From Pelagomonas calceolata (Eukaryota): DNA of 64,000 nt. Of this stretch, positions 14,989 to 51,881 are shown in pieces. The position numbers and the translations under genes are program-made. Each line of letters begins with the position of its first letter. The stretch's first letter is position 1. The notes under the pieces were generated by a model. It saw nothing but the letters and a program-made list of their open reading frames with translations, ran no database searches and was not told the DNA's origin. The stretch lies in contig CAKKNE010000005.1 of NCBI GenBank assembly GCA_918797485.1, forward strand, positions 3,348,001 through 3,412,000. The letters run 5' to 3'.

Positions 14989-17900
14989 CTAGAGCAATTT
15001 AAAAGTCTTGCAGAGCCGCTGCTGCTTCAGGGCCCGTTGGTCGGCCTCATCGTCCGTCGCGTTCATGCGTTTCGTGACCAGGTCGAGGGCGATGTGCTCG
15101 TGCGTGCCGGCCACCGCCAGCACGTGGACCGCGACCGATCTTTTTTGCCCGATGCGGTGGACCCGACCAATCGCCTGGCGGAACGCGGCGAGGTCGAGGA
15201 GCGGCTCGAAGAAGACGGCTCGCGACGCCTGGGTCAAATTGAGACCTACGCCGCCCGCGGCGACAGTCGTCACGAGCACGGTCCAATCGCCGGCAATCGC
15301 CTTGTCTCGCTTCGCACGCGATGCCGCACCGGTGAACGACGCCGCGGCCACTCCGGCGGTTTCTAGGGCAGCAACTACGAGCGGCACGCTCTCGGCCTGG
15401 TCGCAGAAGACAATCGCCTTCCGGTCATCTTGCGTTACTAATCTCACGACCTGTGTGGAAGTAAAAATTTACGGTGCGTTCGTGCAAAATCATCGACGCA
15501 ACGCCTGCTCGATGACGTGGTGATGCCGGTTCCTCACCGCTCGACCGAGCCAGGACGGCCGCGTCATCGCCGAGAAATGAGCACCCGACGCACTGGTTGA
15601 TTTCCACACAGCTCGCGACTTCCTCGGCCTTGGCCTTGGCCGGTGCCAGGTAGGCCTCGTTGACTGCGGCCTTCTCCGCGGCGCGCCGCGCGGCTCTCTG
15701 TCGCGCGCGTGTCAGCGCGAAGTTGCGGACGGCCACGGACCAGCGCCCGCCCTGCGGCACATCCAATACATCGTCCTCGAGGTCCAACAGGTCCTCGGCG
15801 CAGAAGCGACCCTTGCACGCGGGGCACACGACCGACGCGAGCGTGCGGTGGGGCCGCGCCACGGAAATGGGCGGCACCTCGTCCTCGTAGTGGGAGAAGT
15901 CCGCGCCAGGAAAGACTTCTGTTGCGTCCTTGCCGTGTAACGCCTGGGCCGCCCGGTCCTCCTGCTCGCGCGACGCCAGGATCACCTTCGCGCGCGGGTC
16001 CTTGCCGTACTCGACGGATAAACGGACCTCCGGGCGCGAGTCACAGTACGGAGCAAACAATCTCTCCAGCGCCTCCGTGGCCCGTCGTTGATCGGCGTAG
16101 TTATGTAAACCGGAGGGGAAGCCGCCCGTGACCATGAGGTAGGGCCGGTCCCGGACGACGTCGTCGGCCTTGAGCTGGTCGTCGGGAACGGCGTACTGAA
16201 CGCCCTCCACGGTCTCGGAGGTGGACTTGCACCTCTCGAAGAGGCTCTCGACGCAATCGCCGCAGAACAGGTGCCCGCACGTCGCCGGCGCGCGCGGCGC
16301 CAAGCTCCCAACGTTCGTCCGCAAACAACACACGCAGCGCCGCTCCGTCCCGCGGCTCCGCAGGTTCTCGTCGAGGTCGCGGCGGAACGCGTGCAGGTCC
16401 TGCGTCGCGACCGTGTCGGCCGTGGCCTCGGCGTCCGGCCGCCGCGGCACGTTGACGGGCAATTTATCCAAATTCGAGGCGCCCGCGATGGAGTCGTGCT
16501 TGTGGCGCTCCGCGGGATCGACGCCCGCGCACAACCAATCCAGCGGCTTCAGCGCTTGCGCGGCGGCGTGGAGCCGGCACTCCGGCTGCTTCTTCGCCGC
16601 CAGCTTGTCGAAGAGGTCGCTCTTCACGTGGACGGCGCGGTCGTCGCGCGCTTCTAGTGGAGGCAGGGCGACCAAGGCGGCCCCGTCGCGCTCCGCGTTC
16701 TTCGAGTGGCGCACGACCAGAGGTTTGAGTAACGAGCACATGACCTCCGCCGTCGAGTTGAAGGGCGAGAGCCAGTTGTTGGCCAGGATGCAGCGGAAGT
16801 AGTTCAATGATAATAACTCGGGCGCCAATCTCAAAAAGACGAGCGGCCCCAACAAATCAAATAAGGAGTTCGTGACCGGCGTGCCCGTGACGCACCACCT
16901 ATGAGGCGCGTCGACCGCCGCCGTCACGGACACAGCTGGCGAGAAGTTAATGGCGTTCGCCGTGGGCCGGGCCGTCAAGTGCGCGTGGGGCTCATCCAAG
17001 CAGACGCGCCAGAACTCGACGTCGTCTCCTAGAGCACCCGCGGCGGCGTAGGCGCAAAGGATCAAATCAGCTTCCCGGGCGCCGCGCTGTCGTAACACGC
17101 CGTCCGTGGCCTGGAGGCCGTACTCGAGCACTTTTAATTGAGGCGCGCGGTGGCGGCACTCGCGCGCCCACTGGCTCAAGAGCGAGGGAGGCGCTATTAC
17201 GAGAGTGGCCTTGATACGTCTTCTAGACGCCGCGACCCATGCTACGGGTGCCGGGTGCGCCAGCGTCAGACATATAACCTCGAGCGTCTTGCCGAGGCCC
17301 ATGTCCTCCGCTAAAAAACCTCCCCGATGTTTCCGCGCGACGGGCGACCGGAAGTAGCACCGCACGTCTGCTTTAGCTCTCTGCTGGGCGCGTTCGGCCT
17401 CCGTGCCGCCGCCCTTGGGCCAGTCGTGCCGGAAGCGCGGCGCCGGCAGCGTGACGACGGCGAGGTCCTTCGAGAAACTCGACGAGAAGAGGTCCTCCAT
17501 GGATCTCGATGACGTCTCGCGCGCGACCAGCCACGCTATCGTTTCTCTCTGGTAGTCGCCTAATTCAACACCCTCCAGCAAACCGTCTCCATTTTTGGGG
17601 CCGCCCTCGGTCTCCAAGGCGTCGGCGAGCCCATCGCACGTCCTTAGTGACGACCACTTGGCCCTTTGTGCCCTAGGCGGCAGGTCGAGCCCACTGGTCT
17701 TGAGAGAGAGGGCTACGGTAGTGTCGGTGGCTCGTAGTACGCTGCCGACGGCGTCCTCGATGCCGGCGTGGCCGTCCGCGTAGTGGCCGCCGCGGTGCTC
17801 GACCATCGCCGCGTTGACCGTGGCCTCGGCAGAACAGGAGACGATGGTCTCGCCCTTTTCCGTCGCGGCCATGGCTTGTGGCGTCGCCGTCGCCGCGATG

Positions 17901-24328: not shown

Positions 24329-25336
24329 ATGCGCAGCCTCGTCCTAGCGTGCGCGCTCACGACGGCTGCCGCCTGGCGCTTCCCGGGCCTCGCGCGCCCG
24401 CGGGAGGAGGACGTCATCGAGAAAGTCGAGACCACCGGCCCGCGCGAGCTAACGATCGAGACGCACGACTACGAGGCCCACGAGTCGACCATGGTCCTGC
24501 CCTTCGAGGACACGCACGCGTGCCTCCTGCAGTCCCTCAAGGACTACCTCGATACCCACGCTGAAGATCAATTCGAGTCGAAGATCATGCTCAAGATCGG
24601 CGGGCACCGCGTCGACTCGAATGCCGCGGACTACTTCAGGATGATGCCCGACGGCGTTTGTGCGCGGCGTCCTACCTTTCTGCGACGCGGCGATGGCGTC
24701 CGCGGGGGCACCGCGACCCTCCCATACGCCATCGACGCGATGCCCGCAGGTCATCTCCAAGACGCTCATCCACTTGATGGAGCGGCCGCCGGGGCGCACG
24801 TCGCGGCACATCGAGCGCATCATCGGGTCGCAGAAGACGTTGAGATTGCAGGACCTCCTGATCCTCGCGACGGACACGGAGTCGCTCCACCCGGACATCG
24901 ACACGGACATCGTGCTGTTGTTATCTGTGTGGAAATGAAACTTTGGGCGGCCCGCGCCATCGACGTGCTTCCCTAGCTGCGTCTGCTTGTTGGCGCGGCG
25001 ATTCCACGCCATCAACGCGACGTTGTCCCCGTGGCCGCGTCGGCTCGATCGCGTATAACCTAACTCACCGGTCGATCTTCGCACAGGTCGACGGACTTCT
25101 CGGAGATCCACCCCTGGCTCGTGGTCTGGCACGGCAACGAGGTGCCCGTCCTGCAGTACCTCCACGACCACAACTACGTCTGCTACAAGGAGGGCCACGA
25201 GCACTGGTGCGTCGGCGGCCAGCGCGCGATCGCCGCGGGCCTGACGGAGTTCTGCGGCTGCCAGCATATCTACGCGGGCTGCCAGGCGTTCCCCGCCGAC
25301 CCCGCGGCCACTCCGCCGCCGACGGACGAGGACTAG
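24329..25336 (+). CDS. signal-peptide protein with FkbM-methyltransferase-like C-terminus; introns 24656-24749 and 24917-25086
   Basis: Both GT-AG introns join three ORF pieces in frame. DLLILATDTE...IVLSTDFSEIHPWLVVW...L..HNYVC resembles the FkbM tail. Confidence 0.6.
24917..25086 (+). mobile_element. introner intron, degenerate TSD
   Basis: GT lies exactly 8 nt before CTGTGTGGAAAT, and the intron ends TTCGCACAG. Internal CGCCATCGACG-type motifs are present. Confidence 0.75.
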
Positions 25337-35454: not shown

Positions 35455-36481
35455 ATGGGCAATAGCTGCAGTTCGTTCAAGTTATATCTCGAGAAGAAGG
35501 TAAGTTAACGGCAGGTACAGTACGATTATTAAGTGAAAGGCGCGCGCAGGTCGCCGGGTCGATCACGAAGCGCACGCTCGCGGCCGACGCGAAACCGATC
35601 ACCAAGGACGGCCAGCCGGAGCCGCCCGAGCTCGCGGCGATCCACGACAGCTGGGACGCGTTATTGGCCAACCACCTGAGACCGTCGGGCGCGCCGGTCG
35701 ACGGCGTGAAATTCGCGGCCGTCTCGTACCTCGAGCTCGCGGCCGAGGACGGCTTCGCCGCGCTCGTCGAGTCCATCGCGAAGGTCTCGCCGAATGCGGT
35801 CAAATCATGGCCGCCGAACGCCCAGTGCGCCTTCTACATCAACGCCTACAACATCCTCTGCGCGGAGCACGTCTGCCGCACGATCAGAAACGGCGGAGGC
35901 CTGCCCGCGTCTGTCAAGGACTGCGTGCCCGAAGGTTCGAAGAAGAAGGAGATCTGGGACGTCCCCGCCGGGGCCGTCGCGGGCCAGACGCTTAGTTTGA
36001 ACGAGATCGAGCACGGCGTCATCCGCACGCGCTGGGACGAGCCGCGCGTCCACGCCTGCGTCAACTGCGCCTCGCGGTCCTGCCCGGATTTGCTTGGGCA
36101 AGCGTATCGCGGCGACCTGTGTGGAAATCAACGAGTGAGTTAGGTTAACGTGGCGTCGACGGCCTGGCAACTCCACGCCATCGAGCAGACGCAGCTACGG
36201 AATAACATCGCGTCGACACAGGCGGCGACGACCGCCTCGACTACCAGCTCACGGCCCAATTCAAGCTCTGGCTCCGGGACGAGACGAAGGGTCTCACGCT
36301 CGACGACGCGAGGAAGCCCATGCTATCGCGCATCTTCCTCTGGTACGCCGGCGACTTTGAGACGAGGGGCGGGTCCCCCGCGTACGCCGCGCAGTACGCG
36401 CCCGCGGGCGCCGCGAGAGACGCGCTCGCGACAATGGCGCCGAGCTACTTCGCCTACGACTGGAACCTCAACACCCAGTAG
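35455..36481 (+). CDS. DUF547-domain protein; introns 35500-35549 and 36109-36221
   Basis: AFYINAYN, SLNEIEHGVIR, EPRVHACVNCASRSCP, LSRIFLWYAGDF and YDWNLN motifs. The MGNSC start suggests acylation. Confidence 0.88.
36109..36221 (+). mobile_element. introner intron with perfect 8-bp TSD and GC donor
   Basis: GCGGCGAC-CTGTGTGG...GACACAG-GCGGCGAC. Removing one TSD copy plus the element restores the DUF547 frame. Confidence 0.92.
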
Positions 36482-37696: not shown

Positions 37697-39333
37697 AGCA
37701 TCGGAACACTCATGCAGCCGTTCGAGTATCGTTCCGTTCGCTAATGGTCCAAAGAGATCAATGGGACACTTCCTCGGGGCCGAAAAAAGACATAGTTTAA
37801 TTCGCGGCGACGACGCCGCCATGGGCCATGCCGGCTGCGCCAGTTTAATCCTGTCAATCCCTGCCAAACAGGTCTCCCTGGGGTCGCCTAGGGTCGGTAC
37901 TTTACACGTGCACGCGCCTACACCGCATACGCCGCCGCTTCAAGCATTTTTGGCCCAATTCTCTCAACAGCCCGCGCAGATTAGCAATAATAGGCCATGG
38001 TTTGCTTCCAGGGCTCTCCGAGAGCACTAGGCTGCTGCATCGACGGCGTATGCGGTACAGGCGACTACCCACCACCAGACCTGCCCCGAGGGGCCTCCAG
38101 GAGCTGATCTGCCCCCGAAAAAAGTAAACAATTTGGGCCCGATGGCGCCCCGTCCCCGTAAAAAACGTCAATTACCCGAGGCCCCCCAGGAATCGTAATA
38201 GCGGTCTCGTCGGACCCCATACTACCCCAACGATAGTCAATTACAAGTATATGACATCTACACCACGAGAAGGGTACTTTTGGCTGCCCACGCTTGGGAC
38301 GTGAACATCTTGATCTGGACCCCGCGCAAGTCGGTCGTTCATGAAACAAATGATCGCGTTATGGTCCACGGTGAGGGTACACGGGCTGATGGACGCAGGT
38401 CCAGCTCTAAGCCCGAATTAGCGAGATCGTGGGGGCCGCGAGACCGACGACCCGCTCCGAGCATCGTGGGGTCTCGAGCAATGTAGTATTGGCTCAGGCC
38501 GGTTAGCTGGCCCGTCCCGGAACCGAAGCGCCTGAAACGCAAATTTATTTTATAACTCACGGGTCTGGGGCCTTTCTGATGCTCCGTCTCCGCACCGTCG
38601 TCCGCGGAGAACGGGCAAGTCGATCGATCGTGAATAGAACAACGGTGTTATGGTCCATCTGGGGGGTGGCGTCGCCGATACCCGCGGGTCCAGGTTTTGA
38701 GCCCCCCTTCATGAAACGTGGGGTTGCGAAGATGACGAATCGCGCCGCTCTAACGGACCACCTACCATAGCTCATAGTCGCTGAGGCGGACTGGATGGCA
38801 TCTACCGACAACAAACGGATAAAAACGAACATAAACTCGGGAGTTGTCTAGTAGAATTCTTCTCCCGCCCTCCGAGCGCGGGCCGTCGGCTCCGGTTCCG
38901 TCGAGTGTGGATGAAAACTGAGCTGGAGTTGATATAATGTACCATCTGGACGGTGGATGGCGGCGTCAAGCGCTGGTGTATTTTGGCGAGCCGCAAGACT
39001 CATCCGTGAATGTCGCGAGCGGTGCCTTCCGGGAGGCGAGAGGGTATGTTCCCGGGCCGCTACTCTGAAATATTTGGTCTCGGCGAACGACTAGGATGTG
39101 TTCTGAATTTTGGTCATTCTTTTGACGCTATCCAAGCGTATCTTTGAATTTGCTAGTGTGTCGATATACGCTAGCTCCGGTCGGCTCTTTTTGGGCGGAG
39201 CCGAATAACCTCGCACCTTGGTACATGGGACTACTTCCGGCGCGCTCGCGCAGTCATAGACGCCATCGACGCGATATATATATATATATATCAAATACTT
39301 ATCGGGCCTTTGCCGCGCGGTCCGTCGAGACTC

Positions 39334-39501
39334 CTATCCCACGACCGTGCCCTGAGCCGTCGCCACGGGCGCCGCGGCCGGCACCGCCACCGTGAAGTAC
39401 TGGCCCGGGCCGACCCCTGGCGGGACGGTCACCTGGACATTTTGGCCGTTGTGTGGCGCCGACACAAGCGTCCCCGGGCCGGCGCCGGCGGGGACCATGA
39501 C
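39334..39501 (-). pseudogene. headless 3' exon of a host gene abutting the left TIR
   Basis: 55 codons plus TAG: VMVPAGAGPGTLVSAPHNGQNVQVTVPPGVGPGQYFTVAVP..., with an internally repeated VP.G..PG motif. It is below the ORF-track cut-off. Confidence 0.7.
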
Positions 39502-39560
39502 CTATTTTTTAGCTATTAATTTAATCCCAGGTTTTAGTCGCGGCTCGCTCGCGCCTCGCT
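39502..39560 (+). repeat. left TIR (59 bp)
   Basis: CTATTTTTTAGCTATTAATTTAATCCCAGGTTTTAGTCGCGGCTCGCTCGCGCCTCGCT. Confidence 0.95.
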
Positions 39561-40373
39561 AAGACAAAATCGCGTCTTGCTCGGCCCGTCTTGCACCTCC
39601 GAGGCCTGGGCCGCGCGACTGGCTCTACGTGGGCCGTGACTTGCCCCTCGTAACTTACAGCGCTCAAAACGGTGCCGGAGTCGCTCGTTCTCGAGGAGAG
39701 CCCAAAATCGTGACGCGCCGCGCTCGCCGCTGGACGAAAGCGGGGCTGGTCCGAGGCGCCCCGGCGGGGCCCCAGGGTCATATGCATCGGCGCTGAGCGA
39801 AAACAGGAAAAGTTATCGAACCCCGACGCAAATATTCGCGGCGGACCGCGGACGCGTTTTTTTCCGACGCGGCTCACGCGGCAGGAACTGCACGAGCGAT
39901 GAAGGTGGCGGTACCACGCGAAGGTTTGGACGTCGGCCAGCCCTCTGACAGCTCGTGAGGGTCGGCGGTGTCGTAGGGTGCTTTTCCTCTCGCGCCCCGG
40001 CGCGTGCGAGCGCGAGAAACGGGTCTGGCGGCGCGCGGGTGGCAATTTCGAGGACGCGAGGCGCGGCACGTCGCCGTCGTGATGGAACCGCGTCGTTTGC
40101 CCGCCTCGGCCGAGTACGTCGAGGCGTGATGGGCCCTGCGCGGGGCCATGACGCGCAGCGGTTTTCGGGCGACGGCGTCGGAGGCGTATTGGTGGTCTCC
40201 GAGGCTCAAAGCGTGCCGCGGGGTCAGGTGGGCTACGGAGAGCCGCCGCGCGCCGCCCGGCGAGGCGGCCAGGCTCCGGTCTCGGATATGGCTCCCTCGG
40301 CTCGCCCGGGTAGCCTTCCAAGTAACAATCTTACACCAAGACTACAAACACGCTCCCAGAATAAGAGGGTCGT

Positions 40374-42720
40374 TCAATTTTCGGAGTTGTCGTAGATTCC
40401 CCGTCGTCGGACCTGTCGGCCCCTCCGCGTCTCCGTGGGAGACTCTGGCGCCGCCGGCGCCGCGTCGGAGTCGGAGTCGGCGTCGCGGACGAGCGCCATC
40501 CTCCACGAATCTAGATTCAGCGACAGGTTCATGCGCCGCGGCCGGGGCGGCGGCGGGTCGAGGGGTTCGAGGCCGGCCGCGCGCCGCAAATCATTAGTGT
40601 CGTCCAGGGGGACGTCGAAGGTAAGGTGGCCGCGAGGCCCCACGTAGCCACCGGTGGAGTCCGTCAAAAGGGCCCGCTGCGAGTCGACGCGCTCCTCCGC
40701 CAAGCGCGCCGCCTCGGCGTGGCACGCGGCGACGGCGGCGGCGTCCGCCTCATCCGACGCCCACCGCGCACGCAGGTGCTCGACCGACGCGTGCAGCCCG
40801 ACGCCCGGCTGTCGCTCGCCGAAGGCGGTCTCGTACAAAACAGCGGCGGTCGGCGTCTGGCGCGCAGCCGGCGCGCCCGGCAACAAACTCGTCCGCTCGA
40901 GCTCCGTCGCCGTTCCCTCGGCCTCCAGCGCGGTTTCGAAGGCCGCATCGTAGTCCCGCCGTCGCTCCGCGAGAGCCGCCGCCGCAGCCGCCTCGTCCGC
41001 ATAAGCGGAGAGGATGCGCGGGTCGTCCCTCGGCAAATTCCGCCAAGGGTTGCTCGCGTTGATCATCCGTAGACTCGAGGCGACGCGCGCGTCCAGCTCC
41101 GGGTCCAGCGCAAACATTTCTTGAAAAAACGAATAGCCCCCCTTGGCCCTCGACTTCGGCGCCTCGAGGTAGAAGCCGCTCGGCACGTGTTGCGCCGCCC
41201 GCGCCAGCGAAGCCGCCTCGTGCGACGCGGCGTCGGCGCCGGCCCACGCCATCGCACAGCGCGGCGGCCGCTCGCCGACCAGCCGACCGCCGAAGAACAG
41301 CGCCGCGAATTTGACGCGGAATCCGGAGGACGCGAGCGTCGTCGACCTGCGCGGGGGCGACCGGTCATGCGCCGCGCCCCCGCCGTCGCGCGGACGGCGG
41401 GGACGCGGCGCCGCGTCGATGGCGTACCGGTACAAACTCATTTAAAAGACCTTTGACTGCAACGCGAGGCACTCGCCCGCCGTCGTGAATTACATACATG
41501 GAATTCATGCCCTCAATAAGCCGGCGGAGCTCCTGGACCACGGCTAAGTCGTAGGTCGCCACGGCGCGCAGGCACCACGTCGGGGAATACGTGATGCCCG
41601 TCTCACTGCGTTCCTGCCTCAAGATCGCGGCCGCCGCTTTGTTCGCGAGCTTGTGCTGGGCCATGAAGTCGTAGACCTCTCTCAAATAACGAGCCGGAAT
41701 CGGGCGCCGTCCCAGCGTCAGCGCCTCCTCCAGCGACTCGACGAGCGAACGCGGCGCGGCGCGGCGAGACTTCAAAATCACGGCAGTACCGGCAGCGATG
41801 GCAGGTTTTAACCCGAGGTACTGTCGCCGGAAGTCGACGATGGGGAGGTCCCGCGGTACGACGGGCAGCCAGCCCTGCGACGCCTCGGCGTGCGCGTTGT
41901 AGAACTGCCGCGCTTGCTTTATCGACCGGCGCATGCGCTTGAGGAATAACTGCTTGTTCTGGCGCGCCGCCTCGAGGTGCGTCTCCATCGCGGCCTGAGG
42001 CAGCACGACGCCGAGCTTTCTAAAGTAGACCACGGCCTCCGCAGCGGCGCGCGCCTTGCACCAGTCCCTCGACACCGCCTTGCAGATGAACTCGTCGGCC
42101 ATGGTTCGGGTGAGCGACCGCCAGGCCGCCACGGCGACGGCGGGCGCCGCGGCGCTCGACGTCTCCAGGGCCGCGAGCGCCGTCGGCTCTATCTGGAGCC
42201 TCGGAGGACGGCCGCGACGCGCAGGCGGCGGCTCCAAGGTCCCGTCGGGATACTCCGCCACCACGCGCTTGCGTTTTTTCTTCGAGCCCGCGGCGCCGCC
42301 CGTCCGGGGCGGCGCGTTGACGCCCCCGAGGCTTTGACGCCGATAGGCCGTGGCCGGGGGGACGTAGGCTCGGGCAGCGGCCGCAGGCGCAGGCGCGGGG
42401 CTCAGCGCGGTCTCGTCGGTGCCCGAGACCTGGGCCAGTCGATGCTCGAGGAACGTGAGCACGCCTGCAACCGCAGGCGCAGCGTTATTATTTTGCAAGG
42501 GGGCGGCGGCCGCGTACAGCTCGCCGCCGAAGCCGCGCCCGAACACTTGAGGAGCGCCTTGGAGCTGCAAATGGCTCATGACGTTGTGGAACTCCCTCGG
42601 GGTGTTGCGCACGACGCCTTTTTTGGCTAAGACATATTCTATCATTTTTGTGATCTTAGTCCCAGGATGAGCTTTGGGTGGTGGCTGCCTCCTGCGCCTT
42701 GTTGGCCCCGTAATGGTCAT
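40374..42720 (-). CDS. transposon second gene, hAT N-terminal-like; intron from 41476 or 41437 to 41347
   Basis: The 474-aa and 355-aa ORFs can be joined by a phase-2 intron containing CGCCATCGACGCG and ending GCGCAG. It has an AT-hook-like RRGRPP and a YSP...MYVIHDGG segment. Confidence 0.6.
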
Positions 42721-42980
42721 GGTGATGATTTGTGACAGCGATGCTACATGTTTTTCGTTATTTCGAGAGCTGTGCGGCGCGTCGCGCACGGGCGCTTGAG
42801 CCGCATCCTAAAAAGCATCGGAGCTAGCTCATAGAGCTACTAGCTGTCTGGCCTCGGCCCGCGATCTCGTCGTAAACGAGTATGCACGCCCTTCTACGGC
42901 TCCGACCGCTCGATTCACAAGTCCGTCCGGCCAGGCCTGGTCTGCGGACTGCATAAAGTAGCAGGCAAGCCAAGGTAAAA

Positions 42981-45900
42981 ATGATCCGTGTACGCCCCAC
43001 GGTCGTCCGGAGCACGATTTTGATTCTTCACGTCCTCGGTCCTGGCGTGCAGTTGGCGCTGACGGTCTCGAATAATGATTCCGTCGCGTTCCTCAAGAGT
43101 TTGGCTGCAGCCAACTTATGGCAAAGAATGTCGCATCCGGGCCTCGCCTCGCCCGACGATCTCGCCAAAAAGATGCGCATCGGCCGCCTCGATTATTTCT
43201 GGGACGATGCCAACGAACTGCGCATGTACGGCGTCGGCGAGGGCGCATACGAGCATCGTTTCACGGCGTTCGTGTTCGGCGTGGGCCCACAATCGTACAC
43301 GGTGGGCGTGAACGACATCAACTCTCAGAGCTTTTATTTCCCATTGTCCGGCGCGACCACTACTGGTGTTGAGACAGGGCTCTCCATCGCGACCGTCATT
43401 ACCGACGCGATCGACGGTATCACCGACACGATCGAGGCGGCCGCAGTCTTCAGGCGAGCAGGCCAGATGATATCTTTTGTAAGTGATGGAGCAGCGACTG
43501 CTATGAAGGCGCGGTATCACTTCGAATTGCTAAAGGAACAGGTCCTCGGGAAGGCTTCCGTGGGCGTTTTTCAAGTCATGTGTTTCTGTCACGTGCCACC
43601 AGTGCGGAAAACCGACTACGCTTCTAGGACGACGGAGATGCCGACATTGGGTCGCGACGCCTTCGACGCGACGTCGCGTCCACGCGCGACGCCGTCGCGC
43701 GCCCGACGCACGCGCTTGGGTCCTACGTAGGTCATTCACGACGGAGTCCTGCACGCCGTGACGGAGAACTCGCCGCCGCACCCTTCCTGGAGGCGTCAAA
43801 ACCACAACGCCGTCTTCATTTTCTTTTTGGAGCATGTATCGAACTACCTGCACAATTCCTTCCGCGAACTAGACATTGGCTTCATTCCGAAATGTCCTCT
43901 CGGCCAGGAGACGCGCTGGGGAACTTATATCAAAGTAGCTTCGTATCTTGTGTCGTATAGAGCTCTATTGTTAGTCGCGTTGCTGGCTCTTCGCGACAAA
44001 AAAGATAGGAAGGTCTGGTTCAGCGTGGACCTACAGGACGCCTTCAACGTGGCCTGGTCCCCGTGCCGTCGACGTGCCAATTGCGCGACGACGCCGCGAT
44101 TCAGCGATCGACGTCGCGCAGGCCCGCGAATCGGACAAGGACCTCAACTACACCATCTTCATCCTGTCCGACCCGAGCATGTTCATTCAATTGTGCGTCC
44201 TCGCCGAGTTTGGCCTCGGCCTGGCCATCCCCGCGCTCATGTGGGGCCAGCAGAGAAAAGGGCAGCGCGTGATGGAGATCCACGAATATCTCATAAGGCA
44301 CTTCGCCTTGATCGCCTCCCTGCGCGCGGACCCGCACGCTTTCTTCGTCCACACGTTCTACCACGCCGAGGAATTGGGCCTCTCCGAGGAGGACGTCTGC
44401 GCCCATATTTCTAGCATGCTCCGCGCCTACGAAATGTACATCGCGAACCGTTTTGGGCATTGGTTCCGATTACCGTGGGCCTGGGCGCTGCTCTGCCACT
44501 CGGTCTACGGCCGCGACGTCGCCAAGCAACTCGTGCAGCTCGTCAATAGCGGCCGGCTCGCGCGCAGCGGCATGCTCGCCGCCAAGATTGACTACGCCGG
44601 CGTCCTGGCCGACGACGCGCTCTGGGCGGCCGTCGTCGCGTTCGCCGGCGGCACGGACCCCCTCGACGCCGCGGCGCACACCCAGAGTCTGAAAAAATTA
44701 CGGCGAGAGCGATTCCCCGCGCGCCGCGCGCCGCGATCAGCCGTGGCCGGCGCGCGGCCGCGTCTAGACGCACACACAACACAACACAACACGCGCCACG
44801 CGAACGCGCCGTCGACGCGCCACCGCCGGTTCGCGCACCACCTCGACGCCGCGTCGGCCTTCGGGACCCGCGTCGACGGCGTGGGAGTGGGACCACTTCA
44901 ACCAACGCCGCGCACGCCGTAACCCGCCCACGCACACCGTCGCCGCAGGTCGTCACCGCCATCACGAACGTCTTCGACCACATCCCGATCCACTCGGCCA
45001 TGGCCGAGGTCGGCGTGAAGACGTGCCGCGGCGCGGACGTCAACACATTGTTGAATGACCACGGCCTGGGCACGGTCCTGCGGAGCATGAACTCGGAGTT
45101 CAACCTGTCGGACCGCGTCGCGAACGAGGCCTCCATCGCGGGCGCGCGGCACGCCCTCGTCGCGGCGGAGGCCGCGCGGCGCCAGGAGAAGCTCGAGCGC
45201 GCGACCAAGGCCCGCGCCGACTTCGGCGACGCGTGGTCCGAGCTCTTCGACGGGGAAGAGGACGCCGCCAAGGTCTACTCGGACCTGGCGCGCGACAGCG
45301 CCGCGTACGCCCAGGGCCTCGCGTCCGCCGCGTCCGCGCGATCGGATCAGGCGCACGCCCGGCGCCACGGCATCGCCGCCGCGCCCGCGCCCGCCGCCGC
45401 CGACGTCGAGGAGGCGGCCGCCGGCGCGCCGTCGGTCAGCGCCCGCGCCGCTTCAAACGCCGCCGCCTTCGCCGCCTCGCCGTTCGCGATCCTCGAGCCC
45501 ATCGTCCCGTACCTCGTCCACATCCTCAAGATCATCACCATGGACCGCTGCACCGACTCCGCCGACATCGCCAAGTACCTCTCGTACCTCGTCGCCAAGC
45601 TACCGTCCGTGGGCGCGATCCCCGCCGCGAAGGCCAAGTGCCCGTTCTGCACCAACTCGTGGACGTCCGTCAAGGGCGCCACCGAGCTTCGCGCGAACCA
45701 CATCCACACAAGGCACATCCTCCCGATGCAGGCGGGCGCCGGCAGCTACTTTGAGGGCCTCGTCGGCGGCCTCGGCGCGTACGCGCTGCCGACGCAAGTC
45801 GCCGACGTCGCCGACTACCGCTCTGCGTGCGCGGCCGGCGCCCCGAAACCGGCGTCGTATCGACCATCTATCCGCAGGTCCACGCACAAGTACCTGGACC

Positions 45901-46319
45901 GCCACATCGTGCCGCTCCTCCGGCCGGCCCTCCGCACGGTCTTCGAGACGGTCCGGGCCGCGCCCGCGGGCGCCGCCCCGCTGAACTTGACCGACCTCCT
46001 CCAGAAGGCGCTGCCCGAGGCCGCGCCCGCCGAGAGGCCCGACACGGAGCCCTACGAGGACATCCTCGAGGACGACGTCCTCGGCCTGGAGCGGCCGCGC
46101 CCACAGGTCGAGTCGCTGGCGTCGCTCGAGAGCTTGGTCCCCGGCATCATCGTGTCCGCGCTCGTCGCCGCCGCGGACCCGAACCCGCAGCCGCTGCCCG
46201 GCGAGGGCGAGCAGGACGAGATCCGCCTCTCGTACAACGCGGCGGTCAAGGACGATAGCGCCAAGGTCCACCACTTCATGTTGACGCTCATCCCGACCCT
46301 CGCCGATCGGGGCTCGTAG
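42981..46319 (+). CDS. hAT-like DDE transposase with C-terminal BED-like zinc finger; introns 43593-43730, ~44049/44052-44121, ~44700-44948
   Basis: TTTGVETG, FVSDGAATAM, CFCH|VIHDGV, QETRWGT and PIHSAMAEVGVK occur in hAT order, followed by KAKCPFC...NHIHTRH. Confidence 0.75.
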
Positions 46320-46958
46320 GTTAATCACATTTTGTTTCTCGGACAGCTGTCGGCGCGGGACACCTGTGTGGGGAGGGAGGCGAGCGGGCGCGCGTGTGGT
46401 CCGCTTCTCCAGGAAGGCGCCGGCACCGCTCCGTCGCACGATCACCGCCACCGCGGCGCCCGAACGCGCGCAGCGCCGTCGACGCCCTCGCAAATGCGGC
46501 CGGCGCCGACCCGCGGCCCGGCCGCGGCCCTCGGCGCGTCCGGCTTGCACCCCGGACCGTCGGCGCGGCCCGCGCTCGCTCGTTTCTATCCCGGCACCGG
46601 TCCCCGACGCCGCCGCGTGCCACCGGCGTCGTGACGCCGCACGGCGCGCGACGAAAGCCCGAGTCGGCGCCGTCGGCCGTTTCGAGGCGACACGAGCTCG
46701 CGCGCAGCCGGTGAACCGCCCGCGGGCCGCGCCGACCATGTGGCCAACCGACGCGACCGGTCCTGGGGTCGCGCGACGCCCGTCGTAGCCCCCCGACGCC
46801 GCGGCAGCGCCTCAAACCGGGACGGCTCGTTTGCGGCCGCCGCGGCCGCACAGCTCGAACCGCTTTGGTCAAGGCTCGTCAGGAGGTCACAAAAGACGAT
46901 CCCAATCGCTCATGCCTCTACGATGCGCTGCGGCCGCGTACCGGACGTTTTTGTTCCA

Positions 46959-47017
46959 AGCGAGGCGCGAGCGAGCCGCGACTAAAACCTGGGATTAAAT
47001 TAATAGCTAAAAAATAG
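46959..47017 (-). repeat. right TIR (59 bp)
   Basis: Exact reverse complement of 39502-39560. Confidence 0.95.
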
Positions 47018-47286
47018 GCAAGCCAAGGGTTTCATAAAATGAACGCGCCGGGCGTGAGGTCACACGCGACTTTTCAGCGAGGCGGGTAGCCGGCCGCGGT
47101 ACCGACGAGGCCGCTAGCGTGCCTAGTATCGACACGGAGACCAAGAGTTAACTCGAGCTAAAAAAATTTGCTTACAAAACCCGTCACGGTTTCTTAAGTG
47201 ATGACCGGAGGGAACTATCTGACTCGGAGATGATGGTGGTTAGACCCTACGGCGACGAGAGGGTCAATGCAGCGATCTACAACGCC

Positions 47287-47946
47287 TCACTTCTTCTCGG
47301 CGGCGACGGTCTCGACGACGTTGCCCTGGACGACCGGCGGCTCCTCCGTGCGCGGGGCCGCGGCCGGAGCCATCTCCGTGTCCGGCGGCGGGGCCCGCTT
47401 CTGGTTTCTTTTCTCGAAACCGTAGCAACCCGGGCAGAGGAAGCAGCAGCAGCAGATCCCGATGATGATCGCCACGATAATTCCGATAACTAAGCCAGCG
47501 ATCGCGCCTGTGTGCAAATTAACCAGTGTGACGTCGCGTCGATGGCGTGGAGACGCGCCGCGACGATTTGATTTATCCACTGGATCGTACCGTCGTCCGC
47601 GTCGCAGCAATCGTCGAAATTGGACGCGCAGCAGGTGTTGGACTCGCAAAAATCCACGAAAAATCCCCCAGCGGCGAAGCCCCACTCACCCCAACGGCTC
47701 CCTCGCTTCTTGTAGAGGGCGCCGCAATTGCCTTTGTAGAGCTTCTTGTGCGAGCACCTGTGCGGGAATCAACCAGTGCGTCGCGTGCACGCGGCCGTGC
47801 TGGCTCCGTCGAACGGTGGAGGTGATGATGGGCCGTGGGAGAAGATGCGCCGCGACATTTGATTTCCACACAGGCGAGAACGCCTTGCAGCGGGCGAGCG
47901 CCGGCTCGACGACGAGCGCGGATAGAAGGAGGAGGGCGCGCCACAT
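47287..47946 (-). CDS. small single-pass membrane protein with Cys-rich ectodomain (Shisa/CX-like); introns 47758-47881 and 47508-47590
   Basis: Spliced product: signal peptide, CKACSH...CESNTCCASNFDDCC, TM segment GAIAGLVIGIIVAIIIGICCCC, Pro-rich tail. Confidence 0.8.
47508..47590 (-). mobile_element. introner intron, partly decayed
   Basis: CTGTGTGCAAATT...ATTTATCCACTG with TSD GATCGCGC/GATCGTAC; the GT donor is in the TSD. Confidence 0.75.
47758..47881 (-). mobile_element. introner intron
   Basis: TIR CTGTGCGGGAATCAA...TTGATTTCCACACAG with TSD GCGAGCAC/GCGAGAAC. It shares AATCAACCAGTGCGTCG with the SNF2 introner. Confidence 0.88.
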
Positions 47947-48169: not shown

Positions 48170-48194
48170 GCTAGCGGCCTGTAAGACACTAGCA
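48170..48194 (-). promoter_or_regulatory. perfect copy of 25-bp upstream motif
   Basis: Plus strand GCTAGCGGCCTGTAAGACACTAGCA, followed by CCTGAG repeats. Confidence 0.7.
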
Positions 48195-48262
48195 AGACGC
48201 AGCCTGAGCCTGAGCCAGTAGAAGCACAGCTCTATTAGCGGGGGAGAGAGAGGGATAGATAA

Positions 48263-51200
48263 CTAGGCCGACGCCAGCGCCTTCTGGAGCGCCTCCTGCG
48301 CCGGCTTCATGAGGCCCGCGTAGGCCGACTGGATGACGGCCGGCTGCTCGGCGTTGACGCCCTTCAAAGCCCGGACGGCGCGCTGCGCCGTATTAGAATC
48401 GAGCGGCGTCTCGCAGGGCTTCGTCGGTGAAGATGGAGGCGAGCCCTCCAACGTAGAAAGAGCGTCCGCGAGGCGCGCCGTGACGAGCGGCAGGTGCGCC
48501 CGTAACGCGGGATCGCCCCGTTCGAGACCAGTCACCAGCGTCCGGTGGGCCCTTCTAGCTTCCTCGTCGTCCTCCTCGAACGGCAAGGCCCCGAGCCACC
48601 ACCCGACCAACTGCTGCCGTTCTGTGCTATCGGGCGCGTACAACGCATCCGCCACCGCCGCGACAGCGTTCGCCGCGTTCTCGACCGCCCTCGACTTCGT
48701 CTCCTCGTCGTCGTCGTCGTCCGCCGACGCACCCCCGGCGTCGACGACCGCTTTCAGGACCGCGCAGGCCTGGTTCACGTCCACAGCTTTTAATGCAGAA
48801 GCACACTTCCGCGCGACGACGGCGACGCCGTAGGCCGCCGTGGCGCGCACGCCTGCTGAGGTCTCCCGCGCGCCGACCAACCTCAAAGACACCCCTAGTA
48901 CAGTGGGCGCCGCCTGCGCGACCAAGCCCGAAGCACCGCCGTGCTCGACGACGTCGATGAGCGTACATAACGCGGCATGCACGTCCTTTTCCCTTGCATT
49001 GGCCTTCGTTAATACAGGAGCGTAGTGCGGCAGGACCGTCGACTTGAACGTCGAGTCGGCGAACGCGTCTCGCTTCGCCTTGAGCGCCCAACCCACGGCA
49101 TTCACCACATTCTCCTGGAGCTGGTCCTCGGCCTCCAATGCTTCCGCTAAGGCGTCGCCATCGTCGTCGTCGAAGGCGCCGTCGGCTTTCAAGTCCTGCT
49201 CGACCTTGTCCCTCCTTGTATCAGATTCCTTTGCGGCCGCGATGAGGGACTTCACTAATGAATCTAAAAATTGATCGTCCACGCTATCAGCTAACGGAGA
49301 GGGCTTCGAGCCCTCGAGTAAACCAGCTTCCAAGCCGCCGACGTGGGATTGGGCCACGTGTTCTAAAACATCAGACAAAGCGCGCACGTGCAACGGTCTA
49401 GCTTCATCACTTCTTTCAGCCTGCAACGCGTCACTTGTCGAACGTAAAGCGCCGTCGATGAGCGCCGAGGCTTGCGGCTTCCGGGACGCGTCTTCGCGGA
49501 AGGCAGAAACAGCTGACCCGGCGACCTGAGCTAGCGAGCAGGAAGCTGTTGATCTGACAGCTTCGGCCCCAATGCACGTTTGATTGGAAGCTAGCGCCGA
49601 AGCGAAGGCACAAGCCACGGACGGAGGTAACGCCGGCCCGCAGGCCTCGGCCAACTCCCCGAGCAAGTCACAAGCTTTTTCTTTCCCCCAAATAGCTCGT
49701 AGATTCACGGCAACTCGATGCCCACCGATCACGCAGGAGTAAATACCGGAAGCTTCTCTCCGAACATCTTCATCACCAACATTGTTGGAGTGACTGATCT
49801 GCGTCTCGGCTTGCGCGGCGACTAACAACGGTTTGGCTACGGCTTCGAGGGCCGCATCTCCTAAGTGTTGCGCGCCGCACGTGGCGACAATTCGAATAGC
49901 GGCTGGGAGTAAGGTAGATAAAGCCAGGTCGTCCACGTCGTCCTCGGCCGTATCAGTGGTAGGCGGCGGCACGGACGCGTCGGCGACCAACGCCGTTAAT
50001 ACAGCAGGCGCGTCGTTCCTGAATTGAGATGGTACGGCGGCCCCAATAGCCGCGGCGCACTCGATGGCTCTCGCCCGCATCTGCGCCACTTCCTCAGATT
50101 GGGACGCTTGCGTGCCTTGGAGTGCTTGGGCTAATAAGGGCATCAGAGTAGCATAATGCGGACCGAAGACGGAATCCGCCCTCGAGGCGATGGCGCCGAT
50201 GGCCTCTAACACGGCCTTCTGCGCCGACGCGTCGCCGTTGGACGCGCCGAGAGCCCTTGCCAGCGCGGGCACGAGAACATTGAGCGAGTCCTCGACCCAC
50301 GCTGACTGCTCTTCCACATCATCGTTGCCGGCGGTCGCGTAGAGAGACGCGGCGGCACATAAAGCACCCGCTACTCGACCAGAAGTCACACCAGATAATG
50401 CTTGGGCGATAGCCAACAGAGGCGACGGGACCTTGTTCTTCGCCGCGGCGCGTTGATAAGGTTCGCCCGACGCGCACGACAACGCACCGACCAATCTACA
50501 AGCTTCCAAGACACACCGCGGGTCTTCACTGTTCGAAGCGTAGCGCTCGAAGGTCTGGGACGCTACAGTAGCGACAGTGGCCAAGTGGACCTTGAGCTCC
50601 TTGGGCGCACCTAAAGCTAGAGCGTGGAGCGAAGCTAGGGCAGCTCGTCGATCTTCCCACCGCTCGGACGCTAACGCGGGCCCGGCGTCGCCTAGTAATT
50701 TCGGAGCGACCTTCTTGCCTAACGTAGCCGCGAGTCTACGCAGAGCCTGGTCGCCGCCCCTAACATGTTCACCTTCGTCGTCGCAGTCGGCTAAGGCTAA
50801 CAAAGGACAGGGCTGCGCCGCCCATTCTTCCGGGGAGATCTCCTCCGGCGTCCGCGACAATCCAACGGCCACGGGGATGACGTTCGTGACCACATCATTG
50901 GCGTGCCGACGCGCGACGGCCGGCGCCGCCTCCGCGAGAGCCAGAGCGACCTCGAGCGCTCGGGAACGCGTCTCGGGCTCGAACTGGGCCGCGTTCGCCG
51001 CCGCGCCGACCAGCCCTAATAATTGACCGGCATCGGCGGCGAGAAACGCGGGCGCCTCGCCCGCCGCGTCCACGAGCGCGTCGAGGCACTCGACACCTTT
51101 ACTTTCGTCCTTCGTCAGGAAGACTTGCGTGGCTTGTAACACGGCCTTGGCTAATGAAGGAGCGAGGACCTGCTTCCTCGCGGCCGACGAGCACCGGATC

Positions 51201-51881
51201 GCTAGAGTACAAGCGGCCTTGACGGCTAAAACACCGGTCTCGGCGTCCGAAGCTAAATGTTGTTGTAATGGTGCAATCACCTCGGAGATGCTGGCGTCGC
51301 CCGCGAGGCCGACCTTGGCGTCGTCGCCGTCGGCGAGGGCCTGCGTTCGTGTTTTCGCGTTTCGTGTGGTGTGTGTGGGCGATCGTCCACGCCATCGACG
51401 CGATATACGGACGCCGATCGCCGACGGCGCAGAGCGTGAGCGCGACCGTCGCCTGCGGCGAGCCCGGCGCGGCGCCCAGGCCGGCGACGCAGTTACTGGA
51501 CGCGGCGGGCCAGGGTTGGTTGGCGTCGCTCGCCTCTTCCGCGACGGCGACGCATAAAGCGCGCGCGACGGGCGGCTCGGGCCCGCTCGCCAAGGCCTGC
51601 CAGAGCGCGCCGCGGAAGCCGTCGACCGCTTGCGAATTCCACTCGCCGAGCGCGCCGAGCGCCCGTCGAGGCGCCGTGAACCTTTTGGAGAGCGTCGCGG
51701 CGAGCTGGCGCACGGCCGGATTTAGTTGACCGTTCCCGAGGCACGAGACTAACTCCGAAGCGAGCTGGCGCGGGTTGGAGCGCTGCTGCTGGGCGAAGGC
51801 CTCCTCGGCGGCCTTCTGGGTCTTGGGGTCGAGCTGGGCCGCGAGGAGGGCGGGCGTGTCCTGGAAGAGGGCGGCCTCCAT
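48263..51881 (-). CDS. importin-5/Kap121-like HEAT-repeat karyopherin; GC-AG intron 51341-51428
   Basis: IBN-N-like start (Q..AEEAF...VRQLAA.L..R), WEDRRAAL, F.PHY..LMPLL, RARAIEC, ENA..AV and W...LP...D.EEA...H motifs. Confidence 0.8.

What the first reader, a model, noticed from the sequence alone, without database searches (positions are those of the whole stretch)
39334..47030. Large CT...AG-ended hAT-like transposon that resembles a giant introner: candidate autonomous relative of pelagophyte introners
Seen: perfect 59-bp TIRs enclose 7.5 kb that encodes a transposase with hAT-ordered motifs (SDGAA, CxxH, TRW, S..E). The element begins CT and ends AG, as the small introners here do (CTG...CAG), and both ends read AG|G outward. 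On the minus strand the left end reads AAAAAATAG|GTC ATG GTC, an AG placed exactly before an open 55-codon host exon. Known: hAT transposases make 8-bp TSDs, and Aureococcus-type introners are non-autonomous TIR elements with 8-bp TSDs. Inference: this family, or a sister family, could supply the enzyme for intron creation. Caveats: its TIR differs from the introner TIR beyond CT.T.T, and this copy has no TSD.
Basis: partly seen in the sequence, partly recalled or inferred. Interest (0 to 1): 0.88.

Follow-up and report, generated by a model that had tools for sequence, protein, structure and literature searches.

The report
Jumping-gene enzyme split across two genes
This 7.5-kb mobile element in a marine alga carries two back-to-back genes that likely each encode part of one cut-and-paste enzyme, predicted to lock together into a single active site; it is not a giant intron and is probably not the source of the alga's small self-copying introns.

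Summary
The element is real: perfect 60-bp inverted repeats (39501-39560, 46959-47018), both junctions bridged by independent DNA contigs, no target-site duplication. The introner reading is not supported: its ends match the introner end at 6 of 15 bases, the AG at 39503-39502 and the exon behind it have no RNA, and the repeat is present about twice in the genome (this copy only). The plus-strand gene (B) holds only the second aspartate, CxxH, RW and the glutamate, behind a ubiquitin-like domain; its model matches Hermes from residue 212, past catalytic D180. The divergent minus-strand gene (A, spliced and polyadenylated in RNA) carries a conserved aspartate-ended strand plus a second strand. 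The same head-to-head pair stands in all 6 fetched loci long enough to show it. For an intron-free relative the two proteins are predicted to complete one RNase H sheet (score 0.81, best control 0.00; the pass may rest on likeness to Hermes). Best reading: a hAT-derived lineage whose DDE triad is split over two proteins; no such case came up in five literature searches or in this scan's notes. Activity is untested; gene B is silent in the one RNA sample seen.

The parts
39501..47018 (.). TIR element, 7518 bp (ends could also be read as 39502-47017, or 39505-47014 inside a TA duplication)
   Evidence: junctions bridged by contigs
39501..39560 (+). left terminal inverted repeat, 60 bp perfect
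46959..47018 (-). right terminal inverted repeat
   Evidence: one 60-bp unitig at depth 30 against 14.4 for the interior in X2
41477..42720 (-). gene A exon 1 (start at 42720 or 42642): basic N-terminal part, helical region, predicted strand beta1
   Evidence: RNA depth 6-57 on the minus strand; near-identical homologues P0058, P0059
41482..41484 (-). candidate first catalytic aspartate (D1)
   Evidence: aligns with D420 of L004 gene A and the D of L007 gene A; codon checked
41347..41476 (-). gene A intron, 130 nt, GC...AG
   Evidence: RNA joints, 16 and 5 reads; ends read
40374..41346 (-). gene A exon 2: predicted strand beta2, then an HMG-box-like region (about 40930-41170); poly(A) near 40316
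   Evidence: HMG_box only weakly on the L007 homologue (E 0.33), none on the window's own
42981..43592 (+). gene B exon 1: ubiquitin-like domain (about 43010-43250), predicted beta3-alpha1-beta4, D2 at 43485-43487, CxxH at 43581-43592
   Evidence: the top 25 of 30 PDB sequence rows are ubiquitin-like or ubiquitin fusions, best E 0.035
43731..44048 (+). gene B exon 2 with RW at 43914-43919; intron 43593-43730 inferred from intron-free homologues
44122..44676 (+). gene B exon 3 (helical insertion region); its 3' end is uncertain
   Evidence: no RNA
44949..46319 (+). gene B exon 4: catalytic E at 45006-45008, long tail with a C2H2-like finger near 45640-45720
   Evidence: finger seen by eye in L003, L007, L008 too
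39334..39501 (-). orphan 55-codon frame outside the left end, likely the 3' remnant of a host gene; not transcribed in the sample seen
   Evidence: no Pfam match
47758..47873 (-). neighbouring introner (CTG...CAG, 8-bp duplication 7/8), used for comparison

Best explanation
The element is a TIR DNA transposon carrying two head-to-head genes that likely encode one hAT-type DDE transposase in two pieces, predicted to assemble into a single RNase H active site. Shown: the repeats, the two genes, gene A's splicing, the motifs, and the same divergent pair in relatives at about 30% identity. Predicted: protein A gives strands beta1 (with the first aspartate) and beta2; protein B gives beta3, beta4 with the second aspartate, beta5 with CxxH, the helical insertion with RW, and the glutamate helix. 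The break lies in the beta2-beta3 loop, and each new end has gained a domain (HMG-box-like after beta2 on A, ubiquitin-like before beta3 on B). Inferred: the heterodimer would bind the repeats and cut and paste as hAT enzymes do, with hairpins on the flanks; activity would need both genes on, and in the one sample seen only A is. An old inversion of the 5' half of an ordinary hAT gene would give this layout. The missing duplication and the orphan exon at the left end would follow from a deletion next to the element after insertion (inference; one copy only).
For: (1) Gene B lacks room for beta1-beta2: in the window and in L003, L004, L007 only a short linker lies between the ubiquitin-like domain and the strand before alpha1. 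(2) The AlphaFold2 model of L004 gene B (pLDDT 64, pTM 0.41) has Hermes at rank 1 of 48,161 chains (Z 7.0, rmsd 5.7, 164 aligned) and at ranks 1, 2, 3, 5, 8, 9 of 50 rows in the second look (best Z 8.0, rmsd 6.0, 165 aligned); four of these six alignments start at Hermes 212, past D180 (key residues D180, D248, R318, W319, E572: PMC6027215, passage). (3) Of 8 loci fetched, 6 reach upstream of gene B and all 6 have a divergent reading frame there; L005, L006 and L007 are near-identical over gene B, so these are 4 families besides the window's own. (4) Gene A is homologous across them: L004 against L007 E 4e-22 and 6e-24; spliced window A against L004 A score 158, 300 shuffles mean 48, maximum 93, colinear with the aspartates aligned. 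(5) RNA joins the aspartate strand to the next strand in gene A. (6) Complex of L004 B core with 119 residues of L004 A: score 0.81, best of 3 controls 0.00; the mark was reached by 51 of 78 solved and 2 of 108 mismatched microbial pairs (eukaryotes: 39 of 65 without a like older complex, 2 of 126 unrelated); runs agree in at least 96% of contacts, partner pLDDT at least 81. Best contacts pair B 52-56 with A 198-201 in parallel and B 9-16 with A 221-229 antiparallel, the beta1/beta4 and beta2/beta3 pairs of the RNase H order given in PMC5499845 (passage); A's D (203), B's D (58) and B's E (396) all lie in the listed interface. (7) Exons 1-2 of B show dN below dS against L002 (0.39 vs 1.27; pN 0.19 vs pS 0.75).
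Against: The complex was folded for L004, not for the window's own proteins, and halves of a split gene tend to pass by likeness to a solved structure (Hermes). Z 7-8 is middling; Foldseek gave Hermes only E 0.54; two untrimmed alignments (6dww, 2bw3) start at Hermes 168 and so span D180. No Pfam hAT family hit any piece and no PDB transposase was hit by sequence. Window A against L004 A is weak by BLASTP (E 0.005, no hit at 0.01) and by profile comparison of exon 1 alone (probability 0.8%). D1 can be seen in only 3 families. Gene B has no sense reads over 43022-44629 in X22 and X23, and antisense reads cover its 3' part; all three RNA runs come from one sample. Exons 3-4 of B show no clear purifying signal (dN near or above dS against L001 and L008; third positions may be compositionally bounded). 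No second insertion with flanks was found, so mobility is not shown, and L007 has no inverted repeats around its pair.
Confidence: 0.75

Rival explanations
1. One reading: the element, or its family, is the autonomous partner that moves the CTG...CAG introners and is itself a giant introner.
For: Introners here have 8-bp duplications (3 of 6 candidate sites), the usual hAT length (PMC12730594, passage); both kinds start with CT and are flanked C|...|G; the enzyme is hAT-type. A split enzyme would be easy to miss in the BLASTP search for mobilizers described in 10.1101/2022.06.06.494994 (passage).
Against: 6 of 15 terminal bases shared; no duplication at this copy; no RNA at the AG or the exon; about two repeats in the genome; no introner-type end paired around the gene pair in L001-L008 (most loci too short to hold ends).
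Confidence: 0.08
2. Gene A is only an accessory DNA-binding gene (as the second genes of Kolobok or Harbinger) and gene B is a truncated, dead or domesticated hAT remnant; the aspartate in A is a coincidence.
For: B is silent and has antisense RNA; copies with internal deletions in B are common (P0009, P0028, P0032, P0043, L008); A carries HMG-like and basic motifs; two-gene elements with accessory proteins are known (PMC9587614, passages).
Against: B keeps D, CxxH, RW and E across 30%-identical families, which a dead remnant would not; the A fragment is predicted to fill exactly the two missing strands.
Confidence: 0.12
3. Split enzyme as above, but the ends differ from hAT's: the element stops four bases further in and duplicates TA inside a CCTAGG target, or makes no duplication; then this copy is an intact insertion and the lineage is not hAT in its target chemistry.
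For: A TA match exists at offset +4; the ends do not fit the hAT consensus (T/C)A(A/G)NG (PMC6027215, passage); L007 has a 39-bp direct repeat with a TTAA-centred palindrome instead of inverted repeats.
Against: The TA match follows from the inverted repeat and proves nothing; the gene to the right ends with its own stop at 47287, so the orphan exon on the left lacks a 5' half in a plain empty site; hAT variants known from the passage read have 5-8-bp duplications.
Confidence: 0.2

Closest known systems
hAT superfamily, Hermes transposase (PDB 4d1q, 8edg, 8sjd)
   Same: Order D...D...CxxH...RW...E, helical insertion, RNase H strand order, TIR-bounded element (PMC6027215 and PMC5499845, passages).
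   Different: Triad on two divergently transcribed genes; ubiquitin-like and HMG-like additions at the break; no BED finger or hAT dimerisation family detected; ends off consensus; no 8-bp duplication at this copy.
Aureococcus/Pelagomonas-type introner elements
   Same: Same genome; CT start, AG end; hAT-length duplications in the introners (P. calceolata holds 956 putative ones with GT/GC donors and TIRs, PMC9481584 supplement 2, passage).
   Different: Different repeat, 7.5 kb with two genes, not spliced, no duplication, one copy.
Two-gene DNA transposons: Kolobok (KolX and other accessory proteins), Harbinger/Nuwa (Myb protein), IS3EU
   Same: Two genes inside one element, in some cases on opposite strands (PMC9587614 and PMC12730594, passages); Kolobok shares C/DxxH.
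   Different: There the passages describe the second protein as accessory to a whole transposase; here it is predicted to carry a catalytic residue. The window element lacks TTAA duplication and RR...YY ends.
Bacterial IS elements with the transposase in two frames (IS1, IS3; recalled, no call)
   Same: One transposase encoded in two reading frames.
   Different: Those frames are co-oriented and joined by frameshifting into one chain; here the genes are on opposite strands and A is polyadenylated on its own.

Membership tests
hAT | DDE triad with C/DxxH and RW | tested here: met
   D2, CxxH, RW, E in gene B, D1 in gene A; D1's role is predicted
hAT | RNase H fold with helical insertion like Hermes | tested here: met
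   Hermes top match, Z 7.0-8.0, rmsd 5.7-6.0, about 165 aligned; moderate scores, model of relative L004
hAT | single polypeptide holding the whole triad | tested here: not met
   two divergent genes in the window and relatives
hAT | terminal inverted repeats | tested here: met
   60 bp perfect; not found in L007
hAT | terminal consensus (T/C)A(A/G)NG | tested here: not met
   ends read CCTAT or CTATT against the consensus quoted in PMC6027215
hAT | 8-bp (5-8) target-site duplication | tested here: inconclusive
   absent at this copy; no second copy found; may have been lost by a flanking deletion
hAT | BED zinc finger and C-terminal hAT dimerisation family | tested here: inconclusive
   no Pfam hit on any piece; sequences are very remote from Pfam models
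hAT | hairpin-forming excision | not testable with these tools
   needs in vitro cleavage
Aureococcus-type introner | removed by splicing at its terminal AG | tested here: not met
   no reads or joint at 39503-39502 in three runs of one sample
Aureococcus-type introner | 8-bp duplication beginning GT or GC | tested here: not met
   flanks ACCATGAC and GCAAGCCA differ
Aureococcus-type introner | terminal repeat shared with the introner family | tested here: not met
   6 of 15 positions
Kolobok | TTAA duplication and RR...YY termini | tested here: not met
   against PMC9587614; the TTAA-centred palindrome of L007 is unexplained

The most novel reading that the evidence does not exclude
A eukaryotic DNA-transposon lineage of marine algae whose DDE transposase is a natural two-subunit enzyme: the first catalytic aspartate on one protein, the other two catalytic residues on a second, made from head-to-head genes, so that transposition is gated by co-expression; being invisible to single-gene searches, a sister of this lineage could be the long-sought mobilizer of pelagophyte introners (that last step about 0.1).
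Probability: 0.7. Interest if true: 0.85.

Novelty: new variant of a known kind. Interest (0 to 1): 0.76.

Why it matters
If true it is a naturally split DDE active site, showing that the RNase H core of a cut-and-paste transposase tolerates a break between strands 2 and 3. That offers a ready design for two-part, switchable transposases, a new way for an element to limit its own activity, and a reason why such enzymes are missed in annotation (no Pfam hit, no named homologue among 12 hits in 1.84 billion representatives). It also tells the search for the introner mobilizer what to look for: two divergent genes rather than one.

Tried and rejected
No genome was held, so the genome-wide TIR search could not be run. 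Exact TIR patterns found 0 matches in metagenome contigs and viral contigs; the protein pattern found no relatives in viral or prokaryote contigs. A generic TIR+TSD scan of the window gave mostly GC-rich chance pairs. Homologue searches: none longer than 624 aa, 2 near-identical for gene A, 1 for the B alignment. The ESM Atlas gave no result. Alignments A4, A6 and A7 misplace parts of exon fragments; A4, the least affected, was used; the complex run ignored the alignments. Profile comparison A8 against A2 found no homology between the A fragment and B. In one search the orphan frame was given in a wrong frame; it was redone. One search was swamped by introner reads (125 joints and 970 loose ends not shown), hid 158 loose ends, so flanks of sister copies could not be read; depth in metagenome run X11 is higher at the ends (49-98) than over most of the interior (3-54), but the tool says depth is no copy number, so it is not used as support. 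The earlier notes' six-base scar pattern does not occur at either junction. Literature searches for a split transposase (listings only, three papers then read in passages) found none; Repbase and most subscription papers could not be searched. Huff et al. 2016 was not held; the appendix with the mobilizer table of the 2022 introner paper was too large to read and may bear on the introner question.
Full report
Observation. The inverted repeat is perfect over 60 bp from 39501 and 47018 and is the longest in the region. No duplication of 3-12 bp was found at ten boundary offsets. Contigs of independent DNA runs bridge the junctions (X3 39302-39530 and 46989-47560, X6 39156-39560; X2), so the structure is no assembly artefact. 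In X2 the 60-bp repeat forms one unitig at depth 30 against 14.4 for a 7028-bp interior contig, which fits two repeats, those of this copy. No genome was held.

The introner idea. Small CTG...CAG elements are present; 3 of 6 candidate sites have 8-bp duplications beginning GT or GC. The big element shares 6 of 15 terminal bases with them and has no duplication. The 55-codon frame behind the left AG is open, but depth over 39270-39537 is 0 and 0.08 in two RNA runs and none of the 5 listed joints lies there; a third run has 0 over 39428-39741. All three runs are of one sample. The element is thus not seen to be spliced. The 2022 introner survey searched for mobilizers by terminal matrices and BLASTP (10.1101/2022.06.06.494994, passages and section 8); its result table could not be read. 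The 2025 survey says most introners are non-autonomous and some have no known autonomous partner (PMC12130899, passages).

Gene B. The plus-strand gene has four exons. Pfam found nothing. A full scan of 1.84 billion representatives gave 12 hits at E up to 0.001; of the 10 looked up none carried an informative name. Intron-free homologues confirm the first splice and keep D, CxxH and RW; the last acidic residue is E in all 5 rows that cover it. The N-terminus is ubiquitin-like, weakly but consistently (Pfam ubiquitin E 0.06 on L007). Only a short linker separates it from the strand before alpha1, leaving no place for the strand that carries the first aspartate. The model of the intron-free relative L004 has Hermes as best match, four of six alignments starting at Hermes 212, two at 168; Foldseek alone was not significant.

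Gene A. The minus-strand gene is transcribed, spliced at a GC-AG intron (41347-41476; 16 and 5 reads) and polyadenylated near 40316. Eight related loci were fetched. Six reach upstream of B and all six have a divergent frame there; L001 and L002 begin inside B. In L004, L007 and the window an aspartate ends a hydrophobic strand and a second strand follows; L003, L006 and L008 stop before that point. L004 and L007 A are clearly homologous; the window's A is more remote (score 158 against a shuffle maximum of 93 in 300; BLASTP E 0.005; exon-1 profile comparison not significant). An HMG-box-like region follows (E 0.33 on L007 only).

The pair. Folding L004's B core with 119 residues of its A gave 0.81 against a best control of 0.00; the mark was reached by 51 of 78 solved and 2 of 108 mismatched pairs; runs agree in at least 96% of contacts, partner pLDDT at least 81. 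The pass may come from likeness to Hermes and does not show binding, but the geometry is the point: A's aspartate strand pairs in parallel with B's second-aspartate strand, A's second strand antiparallel with B's first, and all three acidic residues are in the interface. This is the beta1-beta2-beta3-alpha1-beta4 order with D on beta1, D after beta4 and E on the later helix given in PMC5499845 (passage).

How it likely works. A and B would form one transposase that binds the 60-bp ends and moves the element by hAT chemistry (inference from the family). Both genes leave a shared 260-bp spacer (42720-42981), yet only A is expressed in the sample seen, with antisense RNA over B's 3' part; gating by B would keep the element quiet. 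Internally deleted B copies exist in ocean samples. The layout would arise by inversion of the 5' half of an ordinary hAT gene. The missing duplication and the orphan exon fit a later deletion beside the left end; a TA or no-duplication target cannot be excluded, and L007's ends (direct repeat with palindrome) remain unexplained.

Against. Activity and mobility are not shown; the structural work is on a relative; selection on B's exons 3-4 is unclear; D1 is seen in three families only.

Comparison. It works like hAT but fails the single-chain and terminal-consensus features, and the duplication could not be settled. Two-gene elements with accessory proteins are known (PMC9587614, PMC12730594, passages). 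Five searches listed no split DDE core; the one hit for 'bipartite transposase' concerns binding sites (PMC7780238, passage). Repbase was not searchable. This scan's notes hold nothing alike by sequence, place or words; two notes on the same genome speak of scars of an unfound cut-and-paste element, whose pattern is not at these junctions.

Verdict. Observation partly confirmed; first reading partly supported; best explanation a split hAT-type transposase (0.75); new variant of a known kind; interest 0.76.

Noticed in passing
window 4667, 18629, 24035, 33607, 35250, 37672, 48169, 57291, 60713: A 24-37-bp motif bounded by two CTAG recurs at 9 places in the window; reads at 48170-48196 show many different flanks. 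Promoter element or tiny repeat.
   Followed up: no
window 42963-42975 and 47016-47028: The same 13-mer stands just before gene B's start codon and across the right junction; unexplained, may be chance.
   Followed up: partly
L007 4309-4347 and 15421-15459: 39-bp direct repeat holding a 28-bp TTAA-centred palindrome, enclosing the gene pair and an ankyrin-phosphodiesterase gene; no inverted repeats found.
   Followed up: partly
window 38800-39150: Very high summed contig depth in three DNA runs: a high-copy repeat next to the left flank, single in the window.
   Followed up: no
window 39621-39860 and 46777-46885: Variant contigs and RNA reads show a sister element sharing the subterminal sequence.
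   Followed up: partly
window 44630-46505: Minus-strand (antisense) RNA over the 3' part of gene B, depth up to 23.
   Followed up: no
window 15451-15611, 36117-36221, 47758-47873; also 24925-25086, 29010, 47508: Introners with CTG...CAG ends; the first three have 8-bp duplications, the others do not or lack a clear second end.
   Followed up: yes
window 48263-51721 (-): Importin-beta-like HEAT-repeat gene (Pfam).
   Followed up: no
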